Shown here in pieces: positions 31,706-45,278 of a DNA stretch of 45,278 nt. A program made the position numbers and the translations under genes. Position 1 is the first letter of the stretch; the number at the start of each line of letters is the position of its first letter. The notes beneath the pieces were generated by a model. That model had not been told where the DNA came from. It ran no database searches and worked only from the letters and a program-made list of their open reading frames with translations. Origin of the DNA: Balamuthia mandrillaris (lineage: Eukaryota); NCBI GenBank assembly GCA_031835245.2, contig JAVKOQ020000002.1, forward strand, positions 620,001 through 665,278, read 5' to 3'.

Positions 31706-32006
31706 CAAGTCAGATGTTGTGGGCTACTTGAAGGACAAACCAAAGAGCATATTTTACATCACATTGCTGGGCGATGTCAAAGCAAGGCGTACAATGACGA
31801 AGGAAGACTTTGACGATTCTGAGAAGGGTCATCTACACTCCTTCCTTGAAGAGCTCCTGTTTGGGGGGTTAGGGGCGGGTACTCAGAACCTACGGCATTC
31901 AACTCCCCATGGTCCATTCTATAAAACTCTAAGTCTATAAGTCTAACGGATAAAGTGGGTCAAAGTAGCAATTTTTTCAATTTTTGTATAGGAATACCTA
32001 TATAAT

Positions 32007-33197
32007 CTAACAAGATATAATCATAATATCATCATCATCATCATCATTCTCCTCTGTCTCTTCCTCTTCATCCAAGATGGATATAACTGTAGTGGTAGTA
32101 GAAGTAGGAGATGATGATGGGGAGGAAGTGTTGTCATTGTCATCATTATCCGATTTGTCAAAGTCCTCATCATGGGCCACCAAGTATTTGGCCTTCAAAG
32201 CGTCCAGATTGTTGGAGAATTCTGTGAGGAGATTGCGCCATTTATCATAGCAATCATTGTTGGTTCGACGTTGGGTAGGCAAGTGTTTGGCAATCTCCAA
32301 CCAAGACCATTCATCACGCAAGCGCCAAGTGACAAGTCTACGGATTTCTGGTGCCTGCCAAGCGATCCGTTGCCGATGGCCATTCTTGCGATATTTGAGT
32401 CGACTGCATAACAATTGTTGTCGCTGAAGTGCTCTGCGAAGTCGTTGTCGTCGTGGTGTTTGTTTTTTTGAGTCAGGACTCTTGTCATCGTCATCATCGA
32501 GAGAAGCAAGTGAGGAAGATGATTGCTCTTGACGAGGGGTGAGGAATGCTTTGTGAATGGGCGATCCATTGACCAACTTGGGAAGTATAGGAGCTACAAA
32601 CTCATCCACCAGCTCATTCAAGCCACTGAAAAAGCTTTGTAGAATGCCAGAGATGTGTTGACGGCACAGCTGGCGATGAATATTGGGCCAACGAAGAGGA
32701 GATTTGTTTTTGGCCTCATAGGTGGCTGCAGCTTCAGCTAGCACATCCTTATCAAACTCATCTGGATGATTTTCTACCCAAGCGGTACAACATTCAAGCC
32801 ACAAGGAGCGATAAAATCGTATTTGTTGATCTTTGGTTGGCAAATCTGTTCGTTTCATGAACCACCTAAAGAAGCAGTGTAAACGAAGAAGAAGAGAGAA
32901 AAAGAAAGCAAGAAAGAAAGAAAGAACAAGAGAAAGAGAAAGAGAAAGAGAAAGCAAGAGAAAGAAAGAGGGAAAGAAAGAAAAAGGGAAAAGAGACAAA
33001 AAACAAAGTGTGAGTGAATGTCAAAAGAAAAACAAATGAACCAAGACCAATCATAACAATTATTGTTTAGACTATGAATGTTGCTGCTGCCACAATAAAC
33101 CTGTGCGTTCTAGCTGAGCGCTAGGTCTAAGGGTGCATTTTTGAATGCAAGCAAGCAAGCAAACAAACAAGCCATGACTGACTGGATAGATAAATAA

Positions 33198-33253
<56 letters not shown>

Positions 33254-34235
33254 TGGTGATGGTGGTGGATACTATGCAAACAAAACAAACAAACAACACA
33301 CAAACAAACCGTTGGCGAACAGCATGAATAAAACTCTGATAGTTGGTATCTGCAGACCAGTTGGATTGTTGCAAAGCATCTGGGGATAGATTGTGAAATG
33401 CTTCTTTGGTAACTAGCTCTGGAGCAATAACTGTATGCATGCAAGGGAGTGAGGATGAAAAGAACCAAAAAGAGAGCAAGTCAGTCCATCAAGTGGTAAT
33501 GGTGGTGGTGGTGGTGGTGGTGGTGGTTTATTACTGCTGGTCAGGCAGCTAGCCCAGCCAAAGAAAAAACAAAAGAAAAAACAAAAATCAGATGAGCAGT
33601 AACAAACCGCAATGTCGAGGAGGATGATAATCAGCAGTGGTAGTTGCAACAGAGGATGAAGATGACGAAGAAGAAGAAGAAGAAGAAGAAGAAGAATGAG
33701 GATGAGTAGTAACATTGCTGACCAAGCGATTGGCCACAATAGCACGTTTTAATGTATCCTTGACGTAGACTTGCTGGGATCTACCACGAGGTACCCAACC
33801 TGCGATAAGGGCAGTAGTATCCAGTACATTGTTCTGACTGTGACCTTCCTGCAGTCCCTCCAAGATCAAGGCAGTGCAAAGGAAGCCAGCACGCAAGGAG
33901 TGAAAGGAAAACAATCCTTCAGGATAACCAGCCCGAACAGCCCGATCTTGCAACTTGGCATTTAAAGTATCGCATGACCATCCCCATAATGATGTTTGTT
34001 TTTGTGCATCCGTTAAGCGCCAGTTGTGAAACTCGCGCAAATCCAAACCATGCTTGCATAACAGATGCTTGTTTAACCAGTAAATAAAATCTCCAAGACA
34101 AATGCTTGGTGTTGATGTTGTTGATGTGGCGGCGGCGGTGGTGGCAGCGGCGGCAGCAGAGGTCGTAGCAGTGACGGTGCTAAGTGGTGATGATGATGAT
34201 GATGGTGATGGTGAAGAAGATGATCCTCGTGATGA

Positions 34236-34269
<34 letters not shown>

Positions 34270-36958: not shown

Positions 36959-39140
36959 CACCTGCCTGAGTTACGGCGTTGTGAACGAGTTGTGGCTCCT
37001 TTTCTGCTGCTACTGCTAGATGAGGCAGCCACGGCAGCAGCAGCTCTTTGCAAAGATGACTTGGCAGCAGCAGTAGCAATAGCCTTTTGAGCAGCAGCTG
37101 CAGCCTTGCGCGTAGATTTGCTGCTAGGGCTCTTAGTAGCACTTGTGTTTTCCTCTTCTTTCTGTTTTTCTGCTTCTTTTTCGCCAGCTTCTGCTTCTGC
37201 TGCTTTTGGTTCTTCTTTTTCTTTTTCTTCTTCTTTTTCTTTTTCTTTTTCTTCTTCTTCTTCTTCTTCTTCTTCTTCTTCTTCTTGTTCTTCTTCCTCC
37301 TCTTCCTCTTCTTCATTTTGTGCTGCTGCTGCTGCTGCTTGTTTCTCTGGGCCATTAGCAGGTTTTTTTGATACTAGAACAACAACAACAACAACAAAAA
37401 TCAGTAAGGCTTGAATGAGAAATCACAAAGGCATAACAGTGCAAACAAACTCCAAAAAGATAGCGCTCCGCTGGAGCGCTAAACAATCAACACCAAAAAG
37501 ACAACCAACAAGAAATACAAATAATAATAAGAACAAAACTGGAGTTAAAAAGCTGCTGCTCCGACGGAGCGCCACTGTATAAGCATAGAATTGCAACTGA
37601 AAAGCCCAAAAAAAAAACACCACGAGGAAGAGGACAAACAAACAAACAAACAAACAAACAAACAAACAAACAAACAAACAGAAAACGAGTAAACCAACAA
37701 AAGAGAGACAAAACACAAAGCTAGTAGAAAAACTGACGGACAGATGGACAGACAGACGGACAGATAGAGAACCAAACTCGAATGGACAAATGAAATAAAA
37801 ATACATACATTCCAACACGTCTATCAGTATGGAATCATCAATATCTTTATCCACCATCGCAGCTGTTGAAGGAGCTGTCTGGTTGGGAATATCTGACTTT
37901 GTTTTGCTATCTCCAGCACCATCACGTGTATCTGCATGCATGCATGTATACATGCATGCCAGCAAGTGTGGTTAGTGCATATGTGAGTTGTTGTAAGTAA
38001 CACCAAACGTGAGCGCCTCTTACCTGCTACATTAGTGATATCAAGGCTCATGAGACTGGCAATCTCATCATCATCATCATCTGAGGAGCTGCTGCTGCTG
38101 CTGCTGTTACTGCTGATGCTAGGAGCAGTAGACTTGGTGGAAGTTGCAAGCTTCTCTGTCTTCTTGGGTTCTTCCTCCTCCTCCTCCTCCTTCTCTTCCT
38201 CCTCTTCCTCCTCTTCCTCTGACTTGCCTGACTCCACTGACTTATCTGATGCCTCTGACTCAGATGAGGCCTCAAACTCCTCCGACTTATCTGATGCCTC
38301 TGATGCGGATGAGGCTTCGGACTCCTCTGACTCGGTGGCAGTCTTCTTTTGTTTCTTTTTCTGCTGTTGTTTCTGCTTCTCCTTCTCCTGTTCCTTCTCC
38401 TTCTCCTTCTCTTTCTTTTTCTGTTGTTGCTTTTGCTTCTGCTTCTGCTTCTGCTTCTCCTTCTCCTTCTCTTTCTCCTTCTTCTTCTTTTTCTGCTGTT
38501 GCTTCTGCTTCTGCTTCTGCTTCTCCTTGTCCTTCTGTTTCTGCTTCTGTTGTTGCTTTTTTTTCTTTTTTTCCAACAACAGTTGATCATCATCCGCTTT
38601 CCGTGGCTTCTTGCTTGTCACAGGAGAGGAAGAGGCAGAAGAGGACATAGCTCTTGGGCGCTTTGTTGAGCTTGGTTGTTGCTGCGCTGTTTCTGCTGTT
38701 GCTGCTAGGTCCATTGTGTCTACGAACACACCAGCTGAGGTAGCATTTCCACTACCACTTCCACCACCACCACCACCACCACCACCACCACCCAGGATAC
38801 TGCCATCATCGAGATTAAACTCCGCATCATCCAAACTACTCTGGTCTACAGCAGCAAAAGAGCGAAGGTCAGGCCCAAAAAACTCTGTCAAGTCTATACA
38901 GGGGCTGGCATCGACAGAGATGTCTTGCTGCAGCTCACTGCTCTTCTGAGCCAGCTTGTCCATGGCTTTTTGGTGCCTAACAGAATGGCGTTTGGCACGA
39001 TGCTTCTCCCTCTTCATTTCTGTATTGCCGACTTGGGTAGAGGTGGTATGGATAGGCTGCCATGTTTTGTTATCCAATTGATCCACATATTGTAAATCCC
39101 TGGAGAATGACAGAAAGAGAAAGAGAAAGAGAGAGAGAGA

Positions 39141-39184
<44 letters not shown>

Positions 39185-39478
39185 AAGAGAGAGAAATAAA
39201 GAGAGAGAAAGAAAGAGAAAAAGAGAGAGAAAGAAAGACAAAAAGTTAAAAAGCGAGTAAATGGGAGGAGGTTGGTAGAGAGTGGTGAATTGTTCCTTTC
39301 CTATGAAACAAACAAACAAACAAATAAACAAACAACTTACCAATCAGCCGCGAGTGGTGATATAGCATCCAGCTCAGGCAAGTCCTTTACATGCACAATA
39401 GCAGCTGCATTGTATAACTGGTCTGTAGGCACTTTAGTGGTAGCAGAGCTGCTGCTAGCTTTACTCTTGTTCTTGCTT

Positions 39479-39512
<34 letters not shown>

Positions 39513-42500
39513 TGCTTTTGCTTTTGCTTCGCCGTCGCTCAGGTTTGCTGGATTTTTCCAGTGTGATGTGCGGCCACACTCGCTCCAGCTGAGAACGAAC
39601 CGGATGACGAATGCGTGTCTTCCAGAGCTTTCTATCCAAAGGATCCAACTCCAGCGGAGTATTATGTTGTTGCGCTTCCTTCACCAAGCAGCGACGAACA
39701 GCAAGCATCAACCGCTTGACATCCTCCAAAGGTCCAGAAAGGTTGATGCTGGTAGAAATGCGCATGCCTTTCAAGGATTTCAGACTGGCGAAGTTCAACG
39801 CGTTCTCTGCCAAGGCTTCTTGCACCGTAAAGGGAGGACAATAATGGATTAGCTTCATACGGTATTGGAACAACTTTTCCTTGGCGGAATGCTGTTTCTC
39901 TACCATCGCTTCCGTTCGGGCTGCTTGCTCTAATTGCTGGCCGTCCAATGGGGGATATAAGAAGGCTTCTGGATCTTCCTCCATCACTGCCGCTTCTTCT
40001 TCTTGTTGTTGTTGCTCTTCACCTTCTTCCTCTTCTTCTTCCTCCTCCTCTTCCCCTCCTGCTAATATCGCCTTTTGTTGCACTTTGGTTCGATGGCTGC
40101 TCGTTGTTGGCTTTGAGGGGGTAGCTGACATTAGAGCATCTGCCAAAGATGACTCGTTCAACCATTCTTGGCGCAGCGGTGGCAAACGGGTATTCTCCTC
40201 GTGTGTTGCGCTATCACTATGAGCAAGCAAGCAAGCAAGGAGGCGAGCGAGTGAGTAAACAGGCAAAGGGAATATAGAGAGGTGGCAAGGATAACATGTC
40301 TTGCATTGCAAGCAAGCAAGCAACCAAGCGAAAGAGGAGCAACATACTGGATAGTTTTGGCCCGTAATAACATGAAAAGTTTCTGCAGGCCGAGAGGGAG
40401 TTGTCTATATACTAACAACAGTTCTTCCCGGGTGAAGGAACCCTGAAAAACGCGTCCTTTGCGGTTGCGCCGTTCATCCGAGGAGGGCATCTCCTTCAGA
40501 ATGCTATACACTGCAGCGTTAATGAGGTTACGGATCCAACTTCCAGTTGGTGTCTCATAAAACCTGCTGCTGCTGCTGCTGCTGGACTGGGAGGAAGTCG
40601 CATCCAACGGTTGTTGTTGTTGCGATGGATCCATCGGCAAGACTTCTTTGCCACGGTCAAGACCAAGAGCGGCCTGATGCAGCACGTCCCAATGACCCTT
40701 GCGAATGGATTGCGCCAGCCACTTCCACCGTGGATTTTCCAGACCGTTGACGATCCAGGGTCCTTCAACGATGCTGCCATGGCAGCGTAAGCCATTGGCC
40801 ACGATATCACCCAATTCCTGGATGATTCCCTCGTTTTGGGCCTGCAGCCACCCAAAGTAAGCGAGAGTTAGCACTTTCCTTCCACCCACCCACCCACCAA
40901 TTGAAACAATCAACCAACCAACCAACCAACCAAACAAACAAACAAACAAACAGATAATGATAAACGGACCTTGCGTCTACAAAACCTCAGAAAGGTTTTG
41001 CTTAGCTCTGTATTTACTTCAGATGGAGGGCTGACCACCATGGGAATGTAATAATAAAACACCAACTGCTTCTGGATGGCTGGAGCCAAGGGGTGCAGCA
41101 GACGAAAGTCGGTTTTCGAAATGAGACCCCGGTTCTCTGCTGCCAGTTGGGAAATAACGTCGATGGACATATGCTCCACCAGGGAGAGATCTTGTCTAAA
41201 AGCGTTGAGTGTAAAGGATTTCGCATGAGCTGCTGGCAAATCCTGTTTGGTGAGCACAAAATAGGGGAGCATCTCCCGTGGAGGTAGGCTTTTCTTTGAT
41301 TTGGCCTTATCGAAAATATGTTCTGCAGCAGCAAGCGCCACTTTCAAGGCCCTGTTGCTTTGAATCTGATCCATTGCACTGACAATGCAACAACACAACA
41401 CATACACATAGCAGTAAGTTGAGAGGTAGTTAGGTCAGATAACCAAGGGCCATATAAAAACAAACAAACAAACAAACAAACAAACAAACAAACAAACAAA
41501 CAAACAAATAAATAAAAAGAAGAACATACTCAGTTTTTGATAGTTGCACGGCATTGGCCAGTTTCAGCAACGTGTCTGCAAATGACCATTCTCGGGGCTT
41601 CACTTTGGTGTTGGGGTCTTCCACCATGGACACAAGCTGATGCACCGGCAGTGACAGTAGATGAATAATGTTGAAATATCGACCGTAGATGGGCATAAGT
41701 GGCGATAACCATGCGCCGTTCTCATCGGCGAGCTGATAACGCCGTACTACATCGCTAGCCGAACGATACACCGCGTTAAGATCGCTGTCCGACAACTTTG
41801 CTGCCACCCTTTGCTGAGGAGAAGAGGCAGCAGCAGCAGCAGCAGCAGCAGCAGCTGATGAAGAGGCAGAGGGGGGGCTAGTAGGCGAGGCAGCTACAAT
41901 AGCTGTGGTTCTCAGTGGAGTAGAAGGAGGAGTGAAGAGAATGCTGTTGATGGTCCCACCAGAAGGCATGGGGCTCTCTTGCGATGATGAAGGTAGGCCA
42001 AGTGAAGCAGCAGCAGCAGCAGCAGGGGATAGCGATGCTGAACTTGCTGCCGCTGCTGCTGCTGCATTGACTGCTGCTTGCTTTGCCTTTAGCAAGGCTT
42101 GCAGTGTGGCTAAGCGAGTGTTACCGCTCAAGACACCTATCCTGAGATGTACTCTCCATGAGTCTGGTTGGTTGGTTGGTTGGTTGGTTGGTTGGTTGGT
42201 TGGTTGGTTGGTTGGTTGGTTGGTTGGTTGGTTGGTTGGTAGGTAGAAAGAAAAACACAGAGGCTCAGTTACTCACAAGGAAACAAAAAAAATAAACCAA
42301 TAACCCCAACAGCAATAACCATAATAACAATGATGGACAAAAGGAAAAGAGAAAAGAGAGATAAAGGGTTAAAAAGAACGCATGATTGCTGGGGTTAAAT
42401 TTGCTGAGGATCTCAGCTTCGGCCTCTGGGCTACCAATAGCAGCAACTGGAAACATATGAGCCTTAAGTTACAATGCAAACCAACCAACCAACGAAATGC

Positions 42501-43399
42501 TACCAACAAACAAACAAACTAACAAACAAACAAACAAAATAAAAACCCTAAAGTGCGGTGGTGGTGCAACCAACGGGTTGGTTGAATAGAGTACCTTTGT
42601 TTAAAATGAGTTCTGCCGAAGTCTGGGTGGCAGTAAACATGAGCTGACTAAGCTTAGCACGCTCGCGGGCCAAAGCATCGCTGGGCTGGCTGCTCTCCTG
42701 GCTACTGCTCGCGATGCTGCCACTGCTGCTAGCGGGAATGCGACATCGGCTAGTAGCAGGGGGGAAAGCAGGAGAAGGAGCCAGTTGGGACAGTTGCCAG
42801 CCCCCTGCAGCTTCATTGGTGTAGACAATGAATGGCGTGATGAAGAAGGCCCCATCAAATCCTTCTTGTGAAGTAGCCCAGCCATTGGTATGGATAAGCC
42901 TCTCAGCTAGGCTGTAATTATACACGCCAGGTCGGAACCCGCGCTGTACCACGTAGGTTAAAAGTTGGGTGCTCCTTTGCGTGGGTAAAAAGTATCTGCA
43001 GAGTGAGTGTGTTCATGTAGTATTGCATTCATTCAGCAAAACAAAACAATCACACCAACAACAAGTCAGTAAAACATAACACAAAGAGAATGTAAAAAAC
43101 AAACAGTTGGTTGGTTGGTTGGTTGATTGGTTGGGTAAAAGAAGAGAAGCAATGCACTCAAAGGGAACGCCCATTAAAAATGAATCTTGTTTTGCAGCCA
43201 AAGAGGTGTTAAGCAGCGAGGGGGACAACTGTTGGAGTTGCTCCCAAGCTTCCTCAAATGAGGAAAAACCATCCTCAAAACCGGTACGAAGGATATCAAT
43301 TAACTGGGAATCATCAGTTTGCAACAACTGCATCCAGAGGGGAAGAGTATGAGTGCCAACTGGTGGCATGAAGGAGGGTGTCACTTGAATGGATTCCAT
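36959..43399 (-). CDS. Large multi-exon hypothetical protein (about 9 exons) with Ala/Ser/Glu/Lys-rich tracts and a possible viroplasmin (RNase H1 N-terminal)-like motif
   Basis: Chain of minus-strand ORFs separated by GT-AG introns holding (TTTG)n, (CCAA)n or (CT)n; donors near 41529, 40969, 40347 and 39340. The 39340-39100 splice was checked in frame ([11 protein letters not shown]). TGA at 36959-36961. Could be more than one gene. Confidence 0.6.
37461..37575. repeat. Two isolated copies of the array palindrome inside an intron
   Basis: TAGCGCTCCGCTGGAGCGCTA at 37461-37481 and GCTCCGACGGAGC at 37558-37570. Confidence 0.85.
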
Positions 43400-43444
43400 C
43401 ACAGCACGGACAGCAGAGTTTAACGGAGAATACAAAAGTATCTA

Positions 43445-43740
43445 TGGTTCAAAATGATTATTGTCCTATTGTCAGCCAGCCACGCCACAAAAACAATAAG
43501 ATGTTAATCAAATATATATCAGCAAACATGACAAAGTCATCTAGTTGAAACAAAAAACAATGAAAGAGAACAAAGCATAAGAGGAATAACAACAATAACA
43601 ACAAATACAACTACCACCACAACAAAAAGAAGAGATAACAAAGACAGACAAAGATATAAACATACAGTTCTGTTTGTGAAGCAATTCAAGTTGAAATTTG
43701 GTCACAACATAATAAAACGAACAATAATCATTTTGAACCA
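43445..43740. repeat. Perfect 20-bp inverted repeat pair enclosing 256 bp
   Basis: TGGTTCAAAATGATTATTGT at 43445-43464; its reverse complement ACAATAATCATTTTGAACCA at 43721-43740. Confidence 0.9.
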
Positions 43741-43816
43741 CAAACAGTAACTAGGGAAAAAGAACAACAGATGCATGGAAACCAGCAGAATGCAAAACAA
43801 AACCCACGAATGCTAG

Positions 43817-44750
43817 CAGCGCTCTGACGGAGCGCTACTTGCTGCGATACAAAAATAAAAAGGAGAAGAAATGAAAGAGTGATAAACAAGGAGGTGAAAG
43901 TAGCGCTCCGACGGAGCGCTAACGCGCGAGTGAATTTGACAGAGATAGGAGGGAAAAAGTCAAAATAAACAAAGTCAGAACAGCACGGAGGAATAATGGG
44001 ACAAAGAGTGAATGGTGAAAATAGGGGAGCGAAAGTAGCGCTCCAACAGAGCGCTAACCCCGCGCAGGATTGTGGGAGAGGGAGAAGAAAAAATAAAAAC
44101 AACCAAGTCCAAATGGAACAGGGTCGTGCAGGGAAAAAAGAGTGAGTGGTGTGAAATGGGGAAGCAAAAGTAGTGCTCCGATGGAGCGCTAACCCCATGA
44201 GTGATTTTGAGAAAGGGCGAAGAAAAAATAAAAACAACCAAGTCCAAATGGAACAGAATCACGAATGAACATAAGAGTGAGTGGTGCAAAATAGGGGAGT
44301 GAAAGTAGTGCTCTGACGGAGCGCTAACCCCGCGCGGTATTTTGAGAGAGGGTGAAGAAAAAATAAAAACAACCAAGTCCAAACGGAACAGGTCGTGCAG
44401 GGAAAAAAGAGTGAGTGGTGCAAAATAGGGGGGCAAAAGTAGTGCTCCAATGGAGCGCTAACCCCGCACGGTATTTTGAGAGAGGGTGAAGAAAATATAA
44501 AAACAACCATCAAATGAACAGGGTCGTGCAGGGAAAAAAGAGTGAGTAGTGGGAAATGGGGGAGCGAAAGTAGCGCTCCGACGGAGCGCTAACCCCGCGA
44601 GTGATTTTGGGAGGAAGAGAAGTGAAAATAAAAACAACCAAGTCCAAACGGAACAGGGTCGTGCAGGGAAAAAAGAGTGAGTGATGCAAAATAGGGGAGC
44701 GAAAGTAGCGCTCCGACGGAGCGCTTACCCCGCGAGTGATTTTGAGGAAG
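43817..44750. repeat. 135-bp tandem array (7 units plus 1 partial), each with the 21-bp palindrome TAGCGCTCCGACGGAGCGCTA
   Basis: Palindromes start at 43817, 43901, 44036, 44171, 44306, 44440, 44571, 44706 (spacings 84, 135, 135, 135, 134, 131, 135). Sequences between them are homologous, e.g. AAAATAAAAACAACCAAGTCCAAA and GGTCGTGCAGGGAAAAAAGAGTGAGT. Confidence 0.97.
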
Positions 44751-45278
44751 AGAAAGCCTCACCAGGAGGTGATTGTGTTAAAACAAATGCGTAGACCAAC
44801 GCATGAAAAGGCCCACAATATATATACACGCACACACCACACAAGTGAAGCCCGTATGCCATAAAACTAGAGAGAGAGTTCACAAAGAAAAAGTAGTACG
44901 TACAGAATAGATCGTGTTGCAAGGACGACCAGAGGCACAGGCAGAACAAAAACAGTAGATTTTTTTTGTTTTTTTGTGATTTGTTTTGATACGAAGGAAG
45001 AAAGGACAGGAGGGGTAGTAAAACGAAAAATCAAATACAGGGAAGGGAGTGCAAAAGGGGGATAGCGCAAGTGTTGGAGAAAGGAGCAATATCAACCACT
45101 AGCACAAAGGCAGCAGTTGAAAACAAAGTGAAACAAAAACGAAGAAAAAAAAGGGGGTAGTAGGGGGAAAGTTGCTGTGAGTGCGTGGGGTTGTGTGTGG
45201 GGGTGTCTGGCAGTAGTGTTTGCTTAGCTGATGACGAAAAAAAAAAAAAATAACGGTCAAAAAAATTAAGGTGGATAA

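What the first reader, a model, noticed from the sequence alone, without database searches (positions are those of the whole stretch)
31861..45278. Candidate giant YR-mobilised element in an amoeba: terminal recombinase, orphan cargo gene and palindromic array
Seen: the YR gene ends ~150 bp from a junction where an unrelated gene stops abruptly. Upstream lie a ~6.4-kb co-oriented orphan gene, a 20-bp inverted repeat pair and a 135-bp array whose palindrome recurs inside the cargo gene's intron. No RT/RNase H, DDE transposase, polB or capsid is recognisable. Inference: these parts form one DNA element that excises and integrates through its YR. It would be much larger than typical Cryptons and comparable in concept to Starships, although here the YR points toward the end.
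Basis: partly seen in the sequence, partly recalled or inferred. Interest (0 to 1): 0.85.

Follow-up and report, generated by a model that had tools for sequence, protein, structure and literature searches.

The report
Telomere-tipped tyrosine-recombinase transposon in amoeba
This stretch of an amoeba genome holds an intact copy of a multi-copy jumping gene that encodes a tyrosine recombinase fused to a Myb DNA-binding domain and ends sharply in a telomere-like repeat; the element is probably only about 5 kb long, the orphan genes and repeat array beside it are probably neighbours rather than cargo, and the family likely inserts at telomere-type repeats.

Summary
A three-exon tyrosine-recombinase (YR) plus Myb gene on the minus strand stops at 32007, 143 bp from a junction at 31863/31864. 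At that junction a DUF6826/kinase-family gene (not a nuclease) is cut off. The 20-bp inverted repeat, the 135-bp array and its palindrome are real. No RT, DDE, polB or capsid domain was found.

The YR has all six catalytic residues and a Cre-like predicted fold. It belongs to a large RT-less YR-Myb family. Another Balamuthia mandrillaris genome holds 17 proteins of a sister subfamily and five fragments of this one, on different contigs.

The end at 31864 is a true element terminus. Other copies share it with different flanks, and a sister subfamily ends in the same motif followed by CCCTAA repeats.

The giant cargo element is not supported. The orphan gene's only close match found is a lone 642-aa protein on a contig that carries none of the YR copies I looked up. 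Where both ends are seen, metagenome relatives are about 3.2-kb single-gene units bounded by telomere repeats. It is not excluded either, because the right end was not found and the cut gene's other half is absent from the window.

New lead: 17 of 27 relatives' loci carry telomere repeats of the host's type.

The parts
31864..31880 (-). Conserved 3' terminus of the element. It holds one telomere-like unit (GGGTTAGGGG on the + strand, which is the CCCTAA strand in the YR sense).
   Evidence: Contigs diverge at 31863 (X2: 3 contigs; X13: 1). An organism-B contig with another flank matches from 31866 at 100%. P0158 shares 31870-31937 with a different upstream sequence. Sister-subfamily read-through proteins P0170 and P0171 end in ..RVPAPNPNPN and ..RVLAPNPNPK, and the window's minus strand reads ..VPAPNPP at this spot.
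31881..32006 (-). Untranslated terminal region between the stop codon and the terminus
   Evidence: Sequence. X2 summed contig depth peaks here, at 2336 in bin 31864-31942 (the tool warns that depth is not a copy number).
32007..32865 (-). YR-Myb gene, exon 3, with the Myb-like domain (about 32229-32387) and the stop codon at 32009-32007
   Evidence: Pfam Myb_DNA-binding E 4.6e-4, below the curated cut-off. tblastn hits to P0001, P0002 and P0003. Splice model in frame.
33310..33430 (-). YR-Myb gene, exon 2
   Evidence: GTTTGT donors and AG acceptors located. The joined frame gives a single blastp HSP to P0001 residues 224-703 across both junctions.
33608..35573 (-). YR-Myb gene, exon 1 from the first in-frame ATG. 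It holds the N-terminal domain and the catalytic core, with R 34505, K 34328, H 33902, R 33893, W 33797 and Y 33767 (first base of each codon). The frame stays open upstream to 36344 without an ATG.
   Evidence: ORF 33588-36344. Six catalytic columns invariant in 55 sequences. Coordinates. AlphaFold model pLDDT 79.7. Best Foldseek PDB rows are Cre, XerH and lambda Int.
36345..37600 (-). Zone in which the 5' (right) end of a compact element would lie. The end was not located.
   Evidence: Inference only. The frame opens at 36344. There is no second telomere-like motif anywhere in the window, and no terminal repeat of the 31864 end.
30602..31862 (+). Flank: 3'-truncated fragment of a DUF6826 + protein-kinase family gene. 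It is itself interrupted by a 353-bp repeat at 31353-31705.
   Evidence: tblastn of P0153/P0154 covers only residues 83-325 of 648. The C-terminal ~320 residues, with the kinase domain, are absent from the window. Pfam DUF6826 E 2.7e-4. A joint that skips 357 bp is seen in three runs.
36958..39245 (-). Co-oriented low-complexity (K/E/S-rich) ORFs between the YR gene and the orphan gene. Status unknown.
   Evidence: ORFs. Only low-complexity Pfam noise.
37460..37482 (.). Solitary copy of the array's palindrome
   Evidence: 3 mismatches; none expected by chance
39343..41374 (-). Orphan gene whose only close match found is a 642-aa annotated Balamuthia protein (P0152). Probably a neighbour, not cargo.
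   Evidence: P0152 maps here at 76-96% identity. Its cluster has 1 member on 1 contig. No Pfam family. No Atlas family; best score 0.79.
41433..43441 (-). Further co-oriented ORFs upstream of the P0152-like gene, with no known family. Whether they are the same gene or another one is undecided.
   Evidence: ORFs. Pfam gave only a 'PT repeat' hit on translated microsatellite.
43445..43740 (.). 296-bp segment bounded by a perfect 20-bp inverted repeat (43445-43464 / 43721-43740). I saw no flanking duplication by eye.
43816..44746 (.). Palindrome-bearing 135-bp tandem array (43896-44746, 6.3 copies) plus one palindrome just before it (43816-43838). Non-coding, function unknown.

Best explanation
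The window holds one intact copy of a multi-copy, RT-less tyrosine-recombinase-Myb gene whose stop codon lies 143 bp from a sharp, conserved, telomere-repeat-like terminus at 31864. It is most likely a compact (roughly 4.5-5.7 kb) Crypton-like DNA element that would move as a circle through recombinase crossover at telomere-type repeats, and the orphan genes, inverted repeat and 135-bp array to its right are probably ordinary flanking DNA rather than cargo.

Shown: the gene model; the catalytic residues and predicted fold; the lack of RT; many dispersed copies in Balamuthia; the sharp shared terminus with different flanks; the truncated neighbour gene; and telomere repeats of the host's type at the borders of relatives' elements.

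Inferred: the circular intermediate; the role of the Myb domain in reading the repeat; the position of the right end; and that the right-hand genes are not cargo.
For: YR identity. R, K, H-x-x-R, W and Y are invariant in 55 aligned family members, the window included. The AlphaFold model has pLDDT 79.7. The listed top Foldseek PDB rows are all tyrosine recombinases; the best is Cre/Tre with TM 0.68 by target and probability 1.00. Pfam Phage_integrase scores above its cut-off in relatives P0023 and P0142 and in the L014 and L008 ORFs.

Intact gene. The three-exon model gives 981 aa with only the terminal stop, and it is colinear with P0001.

No RT. None in 47 of 47 family proteins scanned, in 12 of 12 long ORFs of related loci, or in the window.

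Mobility. 323 representatives reach E<=1e-3. In one other Balamuthia genome a sister subfamily has 17 members at >=90% identity; the 15 listed lie on contigs of 15 different lengths. Five fragments of the window's own subfamily (70-87% identity, one with R->H in the HxxR motif) lie on five contigs.

Terminus. See (loose ends at 31863; the organism-B contig from 31866; P0158; same end motif plus (CCCTAA)2-3 in P0170 and P0171, followed by different host sequence).

Compactness and no cargo. The ciliate-code relatives L012, L013 and L014 are 99.9% identical over a 3.2-kb single-gene unit. That unit is bounded on both sides by (TTGGGG)3-5, and three different sequences lie beyond each end. No cargo homologue is found in any of the 27 loci. 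The orphan gene's only close match is a one-member cluster on a 295-kb contig, a contig length shared by none of the YR copies I looked up.

Telomere link. 17 of 27 loci hold >=2 tandem telomere units, against a mean of 0.01 loci in 200 shuffles. All 11 TTGGGG loci need the ciliate code and all 6 TTAGGG loci read in the standard code. Balamuthia telomeres are TTAGGG (preprint 10.1101/2025.02.25.640156, passages).
Against: The right end was not found. There is no second telomere-like motif in the window, no terminal repeat and no recognisable short direct repeat.

The other half of the truncated kinase-family gene is absent from the window. The C-terminal ~320 residues of P0153 give no hit, and the 30-nt continuation seen in other contigs gives no hit. 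A simple insertion into that gene would therefore have to be longer than 13.4 kb.

The junction's host side (..CTGTTTG) is not telomere-like, so this copy does not sit in a repeat tract.

The repeat's orientation relative to the YR gene in Balamuthia and L009 (C strand after the gene) is opposite to that in the ciliate-code loci and in L001 (G strand).

The contigs that run on past 31863 may come from paralogues of the kinase-family gene rather than from an empty site.

The X2 depth excess over the YR exon is a sum over contigs. The tool says it is no copy number, and the kind of run X2 is unknown.

No in-frame ATG precedes the long open stretch 35573-36344. The RNA run X21 gave no read on 32022-32940; this is weak, because only about 3% of that run was read and all its laid reads were <99% alike.

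Foldseek E-values are weak (best 0.045; none <=0.001).

Linkage in the other genome was judged from annotated proteins and contig lengths only. An unannotated YR copy next to the orphan gene's match cannot be excluded.
Confidence: 0.6

Rival explanations
1. Giant cargo-carrying element. The YR sits at the outward-pointing end of an element longer than 13.4 kb. That element includes the orphan genes, the 20-bp inverted repeat and the palindromic array, and its right end lies beyond the window.
For: The kinase-family gene is cut at 31863 and its other half is nowhere in the window, as expected if the insert runs past 45278. Every ORF chain from 43441 down to the YR gene is co-oriented. The array's palindrome recurs only within this part of the window, at 37460 and 43816-44727, and never in 1-31000. 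No right end was found inside the window.
Against: The orphan gene's only close match found is a one-member cluster on a 295-kb contig, whereas five fragments of this YR subfamily sit on five other contigs. No cargo homologue lies beside any of 27 related YR genes. Relatives with both ends seen are 3.2-kb single-gene units. The orphan gene diverges from its match in the other genome by 4-24% at protein level. That is near the ~90% mean identity a preprint reports between two Balamuthia strains (passage), which fits an ordinary resident gene. Neither the array nor the inverted repeat has any copy elsewhere in the window.
Confidence: 0.15
2. Rearrangement scar. The junction at 31863/31864 is not an insertion site in the strict sense. 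A broken or deleted chromosome segment (possibly a break healed with a few telomere units) was joined to, or later invaded by, a telomere-repeat-seeking YR element. The present copy is stranded, and its original right border was lost by deletion.
For: The host fragment is a pseudogene: it is 3'-truncated and interrupted by a 353-bp repeat. The G-rich strand runs away from the host fragment, as in a healed end. In P0170 a second host gene, a small GTPase, also starts in mid-domain right after the CCCTAA units. No right-hand telomere motif exists in the window.
Against: The orientation of the G strand away from the flank follows from the element's own fixed end, so it is no independent sign of healing. 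Only about 1.5 repeat units are present. The YR gene is intact over 981 codons, which argues for a young copy. Unique gene-bearing DNA, not telomere, lies to the right.
Confidence: 0.15
3. Domesticated host gene. The YR-Myb protein is a resident regulator or recombinase of the amoeba, not part of a mobile element.
For: The reading frame is intact and all catalytic residues are kept. The Myb domain is typical of transcription factors. Crypton-derived host genes are known in animals (PMC3212892, abstract and passages).
Against: There are many dispersed, partly decayed copies. The terminus is shared by copies with different flanks. A neighbouring gene is disrupted.
Confidence: 0.05

Closest known systems
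Cryptons (RT-less tyrosine-recombinase DNA transposons of eukaryotes)
   Same: A single YR gene, often with an accessory DNA-binding domain. No RT, no terminal inverted repeats, multiple copies. The mobility model is a circular form integrating by site-specific crossover at a short shared sequence (background passages of PMC13465315; PMC3212892).
   Different: The accessory domain here is Myb. Neither GCR1_C nor DUF3504 appeared among Pfam hits at E<=1e-3 on 47 family proteins. The host is an amoebozoan. The terminus is a telomere-type repeat rather than a 4-6-bp microhomology. Kinship with named Crypton lineages could not be tested, because no Repbase sequences were on hand. 'Myb' does not occur in PMC3212892, and 'telomer' occurs there only in other contexts.
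CryptonV (target-specific Cryptons of cnidarians)
   Same: YR DNA transposons reported to insert specifically into simple repeats, namely microsatellites. This is known to me only from one sentence and its reference in PMC8869645.
   Different: The target here would be the host's telomere repeat, and the protein carries a Myb domain. The original Repbase Report could not be read.
Starships (giant cargo-carrying YR elements of Pezizomycotina fungi)
   Same: YR-mobilised DNA elements.
   Different: The Starship 'captain' is a DUF3435 YR (passage of PMC13465315). That it sits at the 5' end and points inward is my recollection. No DUF3435 hit was seen here. Here the YR sits at the end and points outward. 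Cargo is not supported.
DIRS / Ngaro / VIPER / TATE (YR retrotransposons)
   Same: A eukaryotic YR. DIRS is native to Amoebozoa and TATE is telomere-associated in kinetoplastids; both points are recalled, and of PMC6681497 I saw only the listing and the start of its abstract.
   Different: Those elements encode RT/RNase H and have inverted or split direct terminal repeats. None of these is present here.
Telomere-repeat-associated DNA transposons of ciliates (Paramecium telomere-capping Helitrons; Tetrahymena Tel-1; Oxytricha TBE1)
   Same: DNA elements bordered by the host's telomere repeats, with repeat length varying between copies. For the Paramecium Helitrons, insertion into telomere repeats is proposed (passage of PMC13085455).
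   Different: Those use Helitron or DDE enzymes, or an unknown one for Tel-1. That paper holds neither 'tyrosine recombinase' nor 'Crypton'. Here the repeats are direct on both sides of a YR-Myb unit.

Membership tests
Crypton-like YR DNA transposon | Encodes a tyrosine recombinase with the catalytic R-K-H-R-(H/W)-Y set | tested here: met
   All six columns are invariant in 55 sequences, the window included. The predicted fold matches Cre, XerH and lambda Int best (E-values are weak, best 0.045).
Crypton-like YR DNA transposon | No reverse transcriptase or RNase H in the element | tested here: met
   Pfam found none in 35 ORFs of 32-45.3 kb, in 47 family proteins or in 12 long ORFs of related loci.
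Crypton-like YR DNA transposon | Repeated and dispersed, with a common end next to different flanks | tested here: met
Crypton-like YR DNA transposon | Short direct repeats (microhomology with the target) at both ends; no TIR or LTR | tested here: inconclusive
   No TIR or LTR in the window. The right end was not found, so the flanking repeats cannot be compared. Relatives have direct telomere-repeat runs at both ends.
Crypton-like YR DNA transposon | Sequence kinship with a named Crypton lineage (CryptonF/S/A/I/V) | not testable with these tools
   No Repbase library was available. Neither Pfam DUF3504 nor GCR1_C appeared among hits at E<=1e-3.
Starship | Captain YR of the DUF3435 family | tested here: not met
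   No DUF3435 hit in the window's YR ORF or in 47 family proteins.
Starship | Captain at the 5' end, reading into the element, followed by cargo shared between copies | tested here: not met
   The YR reads outward, toward the end at 31864. The orphan gene's match is not on the contigs of the other YR copies I looked up. The placement rule for the captain is recalled, not taken from a call.
DIRS-like YR retrotransposon | RT/RNase H (and often a methyltransferase) next to the YR; inverted terminal repeats with an internal complementary region | tested here: not met
Telomere-repeat-specific mobile element (a functional class, not a family) | Element bordered on both sides by the host's telomere repeat, with different flanks beyond | tested here: inconclusive
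   Met for the relatives L012/L013/L014 and L006/L007/L008. In the window only the 3' end carries about 1.5 units, and the host side is not telomere-like.
Telobox (telomere-binding) Myb domain | Third-helix motif of the type x-D-L-K-D-K-W-R-N (consensus recalled, not from a call) and closest kinship to TRF/Tbf-type Myb domains | tested here: inconclusive
   The window reads ..NDCYDKWRNL and P0003 reads ..LDLKDKWRNL. Only 19 of 117 family proteins have the K-D-[KR]-W-R-N-like motif. PDB searches rank c-Myb above TRF1/2.

The most novel reading that the evidence does not exclude
A eukaryote-wide family of Crypton-like elements, made of a tyrosine recombinase fused to a Myb domain, integrates site-specifically into the host's own telomere repeat: TTAGGG in amoebae and other standard-code protists, TTGGGG in ciliates. 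This builds head-to-tail arrays bounded by short telomere-repeat runs, and the Myb domain reads the repeat. The Balamuthia copy in this window is a member whose CCCTAA-tipped end now abuts a broken kinase-family gene. If so, these would be the first telomere-repeat-specific YR DNA transposons. They may also explain internal telomere-repeat blocks next to conserved sequences in ciliate germline DNA (the old Tel-1 puzzle, which is recalled and is cited in PMC13085455).
Probability: 0.45. Interest if true: 0.8.

Novelty: new variant of a known kind. Interest (0 to 1): 0.55.

Why it matters
Tyrosine-recombinase DNA transposons are rare and poorly understood in eukaryotes, and a recent Balamuthia genome preprint says the genome's many transposable elements still await a dedicated annotation (passage). 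This window gives a clean, intact reference copy of a multi-copy YR-Myb family, with a gene model, catalytic residues and a defined 3' terminus. It also shows that annotated 'host' proteins in another Balamuthia genome are fusions with such elements, for example the 'Rap1 GTPase-activating protein' and 'DEAD-box helicase' models.

The wider point is the repeated finding of host-type telomere repeats at the borders of relatives from organisms with different telomere repeats and genetic codes. If integration really targets telomere repeats, this is a new route by which DNA transposons find a safe harbour. It would also be a source of interstitial telomere sequence, and a natural recombinase with a simple, known target that could be tested directly.

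The evidence does not point to a Starship-like cargo carrier in amoebae.

Tried and rejected
- No whole genome is held for the window, so copy number and the right end could not be read from the genome.
- The repeat finder on the whole window was swamped by microsatellite-like low complexity. I replaced it with a filtered script and a self-BLAST, which found no dispersed repeat other than the array.
Only 30600-32940 could be laid. The YR body, the orphan genes and the array therefore have no read evidence.
- RNA run X21 gave no read over 32022-32940. Only about 3% of that run was read and all its laid reads were <99% alike, so this is no evidence against expression.
- The 30-nt continuation of the cut gene was not found in the window. 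No second telomere-like motif was found.
- Rfam: nothing in the window.
- The viral-contig scan with the family alignment found no relative.
- The PDB profile search was dominated by the Myb domain and did not retrieve recombinases by sequence.
- The telobox idea was tested and left as a lead.
- The Atlas search of the orphan protein found no family; best score 0.79, below the tool's own noise level.
- The search of earlier findings returned nothing, either for the genome or for the key words.
- I looked for a flanking duplication around the 20-bp inverted repeat by eye and saw none. This was not tested further.
- Literature. Searches for Crypton / tyrosine recombinase with Myb or telomere terms returned no paper describing YR-Myb elements at telomere repeats. 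Only listings and the cited passages were read. Repbase Reports and subscription journals are not covered, so prior description cannot be excluded.
- An earlier notebook entry says 27 of 47 family proteins have a Myb hit. A recount gives 23 of 47.

Full report
**What the window is.** The window is eukaryotic, about 45% G+C, and its introns are rich in tetranucleotide repeats. Its closest protein matches are from Balamuthia mandrillaris. Positions 1-31000 carry ordinary genes: RhoGEF, a flavodoxin/FAD/NAD reductase, aldehyde dehydrogenase, a Frizzled-like protein, ankyrin, MRG, Slu7, BTB and F-box domains. There is no transposon or virus domain there. No whole genome is held for this window.

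**The recombinase gene.** On the minus strand, a 918-codon open frame (33588-36344) carries an ..FHSLRAGF..GW..YVKD.. tail. Two further ORFs continue the similarity to Balamuthia proteins P0001 and P0002, which end in a Myb domain.
- I located GTTTGT donors and AG acceptors.
- The model is exon 1 up to 33608, exon 2 at 33430-33310 and exon 3 at 32865-32007.
- Read from the first in-frame ATG (35573), it gives 981 residues with only the terminal stop. It gives one continuous blastp match to P0001 residues 224-703 across both junctions.
- The frame stays open upstream to 36344 without an ATG, so the true start is unsettled.
- Pfam does not recognise the catalytic part of the window's protein. 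Its Myb hit is below the curated cut-off (E 4.6e-4).

**Is it a tyrosine recombinase?** A full HMMER scan of 1.84 billion representatives found 323 relatives at E<=1e-3 and 195 at E<=1e-10.
- In an alignment of 55 of them, nine columns are invariant. Six of these are the R, K, H-x-x-R, W and Y of the recombinase active site; window coordinates are.
- The AlphaFold model built on that alignment has pLDDT 79.7 and pTM 0.72.
- No Foldseek match against the PDB reaches E<=0.001. The listed best rows are nevertheless all tyrosine recombinases (Cre/Tre, XerH, lambda integrase, XerA, XerD). The best has E 0.045, probability 1.00 and TM 0.68 by target length.
- Pfam Phage_integrase passes its cut-off in two of 47 relatives scanned and in two of 12 ORFs from related loci.
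- 23 of the 47 have a Myb hit at E<=1e-3. None has RT, DUF3435 or DUF3504.

**Is it mobile?** In one other annotated Balamuthia genome, the sister subfamily around P0002 has 17 members at >=90% identity; the 15 listed lie on contigs of 15 different lengths. Fragments of the window's own subfamily (P0004, P0005, P0006, P0030, P0119) are 70-87% identical to the window, and one has the catalytic HxxR arginine changed to H. They lie on five different contigs. Two copies from different subfamilies carry locus tags two apart.

**The left junction.** Reads could be laid only on 30600-32940, after two refusals.
- Contigs of runs X2 (three) and X13 (one) follow the window up to 31863 and then continue with another sequence that keeps the neighbour's reading frame open.
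- A contig of run X12, labelled as another organism, has a different left flank and then matches 31866-31984 without a mismatch.
- Summed contig depth in X2 is 350-2300 right of 31864, against 12-160 over 30600-31310. The tool warns that this is no copy number.
- The neighbour is a member of a DUF6826 + protein-kinase family. Full-length relatives (P0153, 648 aa; P0154, 607 aa) match the window only over residues 83-325, up to 31862. Their C-terminal ~320 residues have no match anywhere in the window. The continuing contigs may therefore come from paralogues rather than from an empty site.
- A further annotated protein, P0158, ends with the peptide encoded at 31870-31937 but has a different upstream sequence.
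- Two read-through gene models of the sister subfamily end, just after the Myb domain, in ..RVPAPNPNPN (P0170, then a small GTPase starting in mid-domain) and ..RVLAPNPNPK (P0171). PNPNPN is CCCTAA repeats read in frame. The window's minus strand reads ..VPAPNPP at 31880-31864.

So 31864-31880 is a conserved 3' terminus tipped by the C-rich telomere strand. A preprint gives the Balamuthia telomere as TTAGGG (10.1101/2025.02.25.640156, passages).

**Relatives elsewhere.** A metagenome scan with the alignment gave 27 loci of 1.6-9.3 kb.
- Seventeen hold two or more tandem telomere units. In 200 shuffles the mean number of such loci was 0.01.
- All 11 loci with TTGGGG need the ciliate code: the longest standard-code ORF over the match is 125 aa or less, against 528-647 aa in code 6. 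All 6 loci with TTAGGG read in the standard code.
- These are not 17 independent elements. L012-L015 are one element, as are L006-L008, and L016 and L021 largely coincide.
- L012, L013 and L014 are 99.9% identical over about 3245 bp. That unit starts and ends in (TTGGGG)3-5 in the same orientation. Three different sequences lie beyond each end, one of them the start of another such element.
- L006, L007 and L008 share one element behind 2, 2 and 4 repeat units, with different upstream DNA.
- Each unit holds one YR-Myb gene of about 530-600 codons plus about 1.5 kb without a long ORF.
- L001 has an intronless 578-codon YR-Myb gene, with 19 TTAGGG units at the contig end 1.2 kb after it.
- L009 has (CCCTAA)3 after the gene, as in Balamuthia.
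- The orientation of the repeat relative to the gene thus differs between subgroups, which I cannot explain.

- The 20-bp inverted repeat, the array and the palindrome sites are as described. None recurs elsewhere in the window.
- The ORF chain 43441-37000 has no Pfam family.
- Its part 41374-39343 maps at 76-96% identity to P0152, a 642-aa protein that its source names 'Carbonic anhydrase'. P0152 has no precomputed Pfam domain, the window's ORFs over it have no Pfam family, and the Atlas offers no family.
- P0152's cluster has one member, on a 295-kb contig. None of the YR copies I looked up lies on a contig of that length.
- No cargo homologue occurs in the 27 related loci.

These results fit ordinary neighbouring genes. 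They rest on annotated proteins only.

**Verdict.** The most likely reading is a compact Crypton-like YR-Myb element whose 3' end is at 31864 and whose 5' end lies somewhere between about 36.3 and 37.6 kb. That right end is inferred, not seen. The giant-element reading keeps about 15%, because the right end and the other half of the cut gene are missing from the window.

The mechanism is inference. It would run as excision to a circle, then integration by recombinase crossover at a telomere-type repeat read by the Myb domain. It rests on the direct telomere-repeat borders of the relatives and on the general Crypton model (passages of PMC13465315). In this copy the host side of the junction is not telomere-like, which counts against a strict target requirement.

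**Literature.** Microsatellite-specific CryptonV elements (one sentence in PMC8869645) and Paramecium Helitrons proposed to insert into telomere repeats (passage of PMC13085455) are the nearest precedents. My searches found no description of YR-Myb elements at telomere repeats. They do not cover Repbase Reports or subscription journals.

Noticed in passing
window 31353-31705 (+ strand; left of the finding): A 353-bp insertion in the kinase-family gene fragment. A joint that skips 357 bp (31348->31706) appears in an RNA run and in two other runs' contigs, and CAAG is present on both sides, which looks like a 4-bp target duplication. Summed depth is 10-50 times that of the flanks, and many contigs with unlike flanks begin at 31353 or end at 31705. 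The two ends look like an imperfect inverted repeat, judged by eye (TGTTGTAAAA.. / ..TTTTCCAACA). It is probably a small non-autonomous DNA transposon with many copies.
   Followed up: partly
proteins P0170, P0177, P0004 (other Balamuthia genome): Annotated 'Rap1 GTPase-activating protein 1' (1261 aa) and 'DEAD-box ATP-dependent RNA helicase 53' (880 aa) share their first ~740 residues with the YR-Myb sister subfamily. A 'REJ domain-containing protein' (227 aa) is a fragment of the window's YR subfamily. These look like gene models fused with, or made of, transposon sequence.
   Followed up: partly
proteins P0172 and P0005 (locus tags QOT17_000669 and QOT17_000671, 556-kb contig): Copies of two different YR-Myb subfamilies lie two locus tags apart in the other Balamuthia genome. 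This hints at clustered or nested insertions like the head-to-tail arrays seen in the ciliate-code loci.
   Followed up: no
L012-L017, L006-L008, L016, L020, L021: In the ciliate-code loci, conserved motifs flank the TTGGGG runs..AATAAAGGGTTTT before the repeats and GGGAGGAGCAACTCG.. after them. This holds across elements that are otherwise only 70-84% alike. They are candidates for the recombinase's binding sites.
   Followed up: partly
protein P0142 (2064 aa); L026:1501-6273; L011:1259-4834: Some family members are much larger. One carries an N-terminal ubiquitin hydrolase (UCH) domain and the YR at its C-terminus. Two metagenome loci have 1591- and 1192-codon open frames around the YR part, the second running to its contig's end.
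   Followed up: no
window 37550-37575 (minus strand): A second, more degenerate copy of the array's palindrome (..GGCGCTCCGTCGGAGC..) lies about 90 bp from the one at 37460. I saw it by eye. It fell outside the 3-mismatch search.
   Followed up: no
window 30463-30591, 33185-33253, 36812-36859, 37634-37680, 41458-41516, 42165-42244: Apparent introns and spacers of this genome carry long tetranucleotide runs such as (CAAA)n, (GATA)n, (CCAT)n and (TGGT)n. The two YR introns begin with GTTTGT.
   Followed up: no
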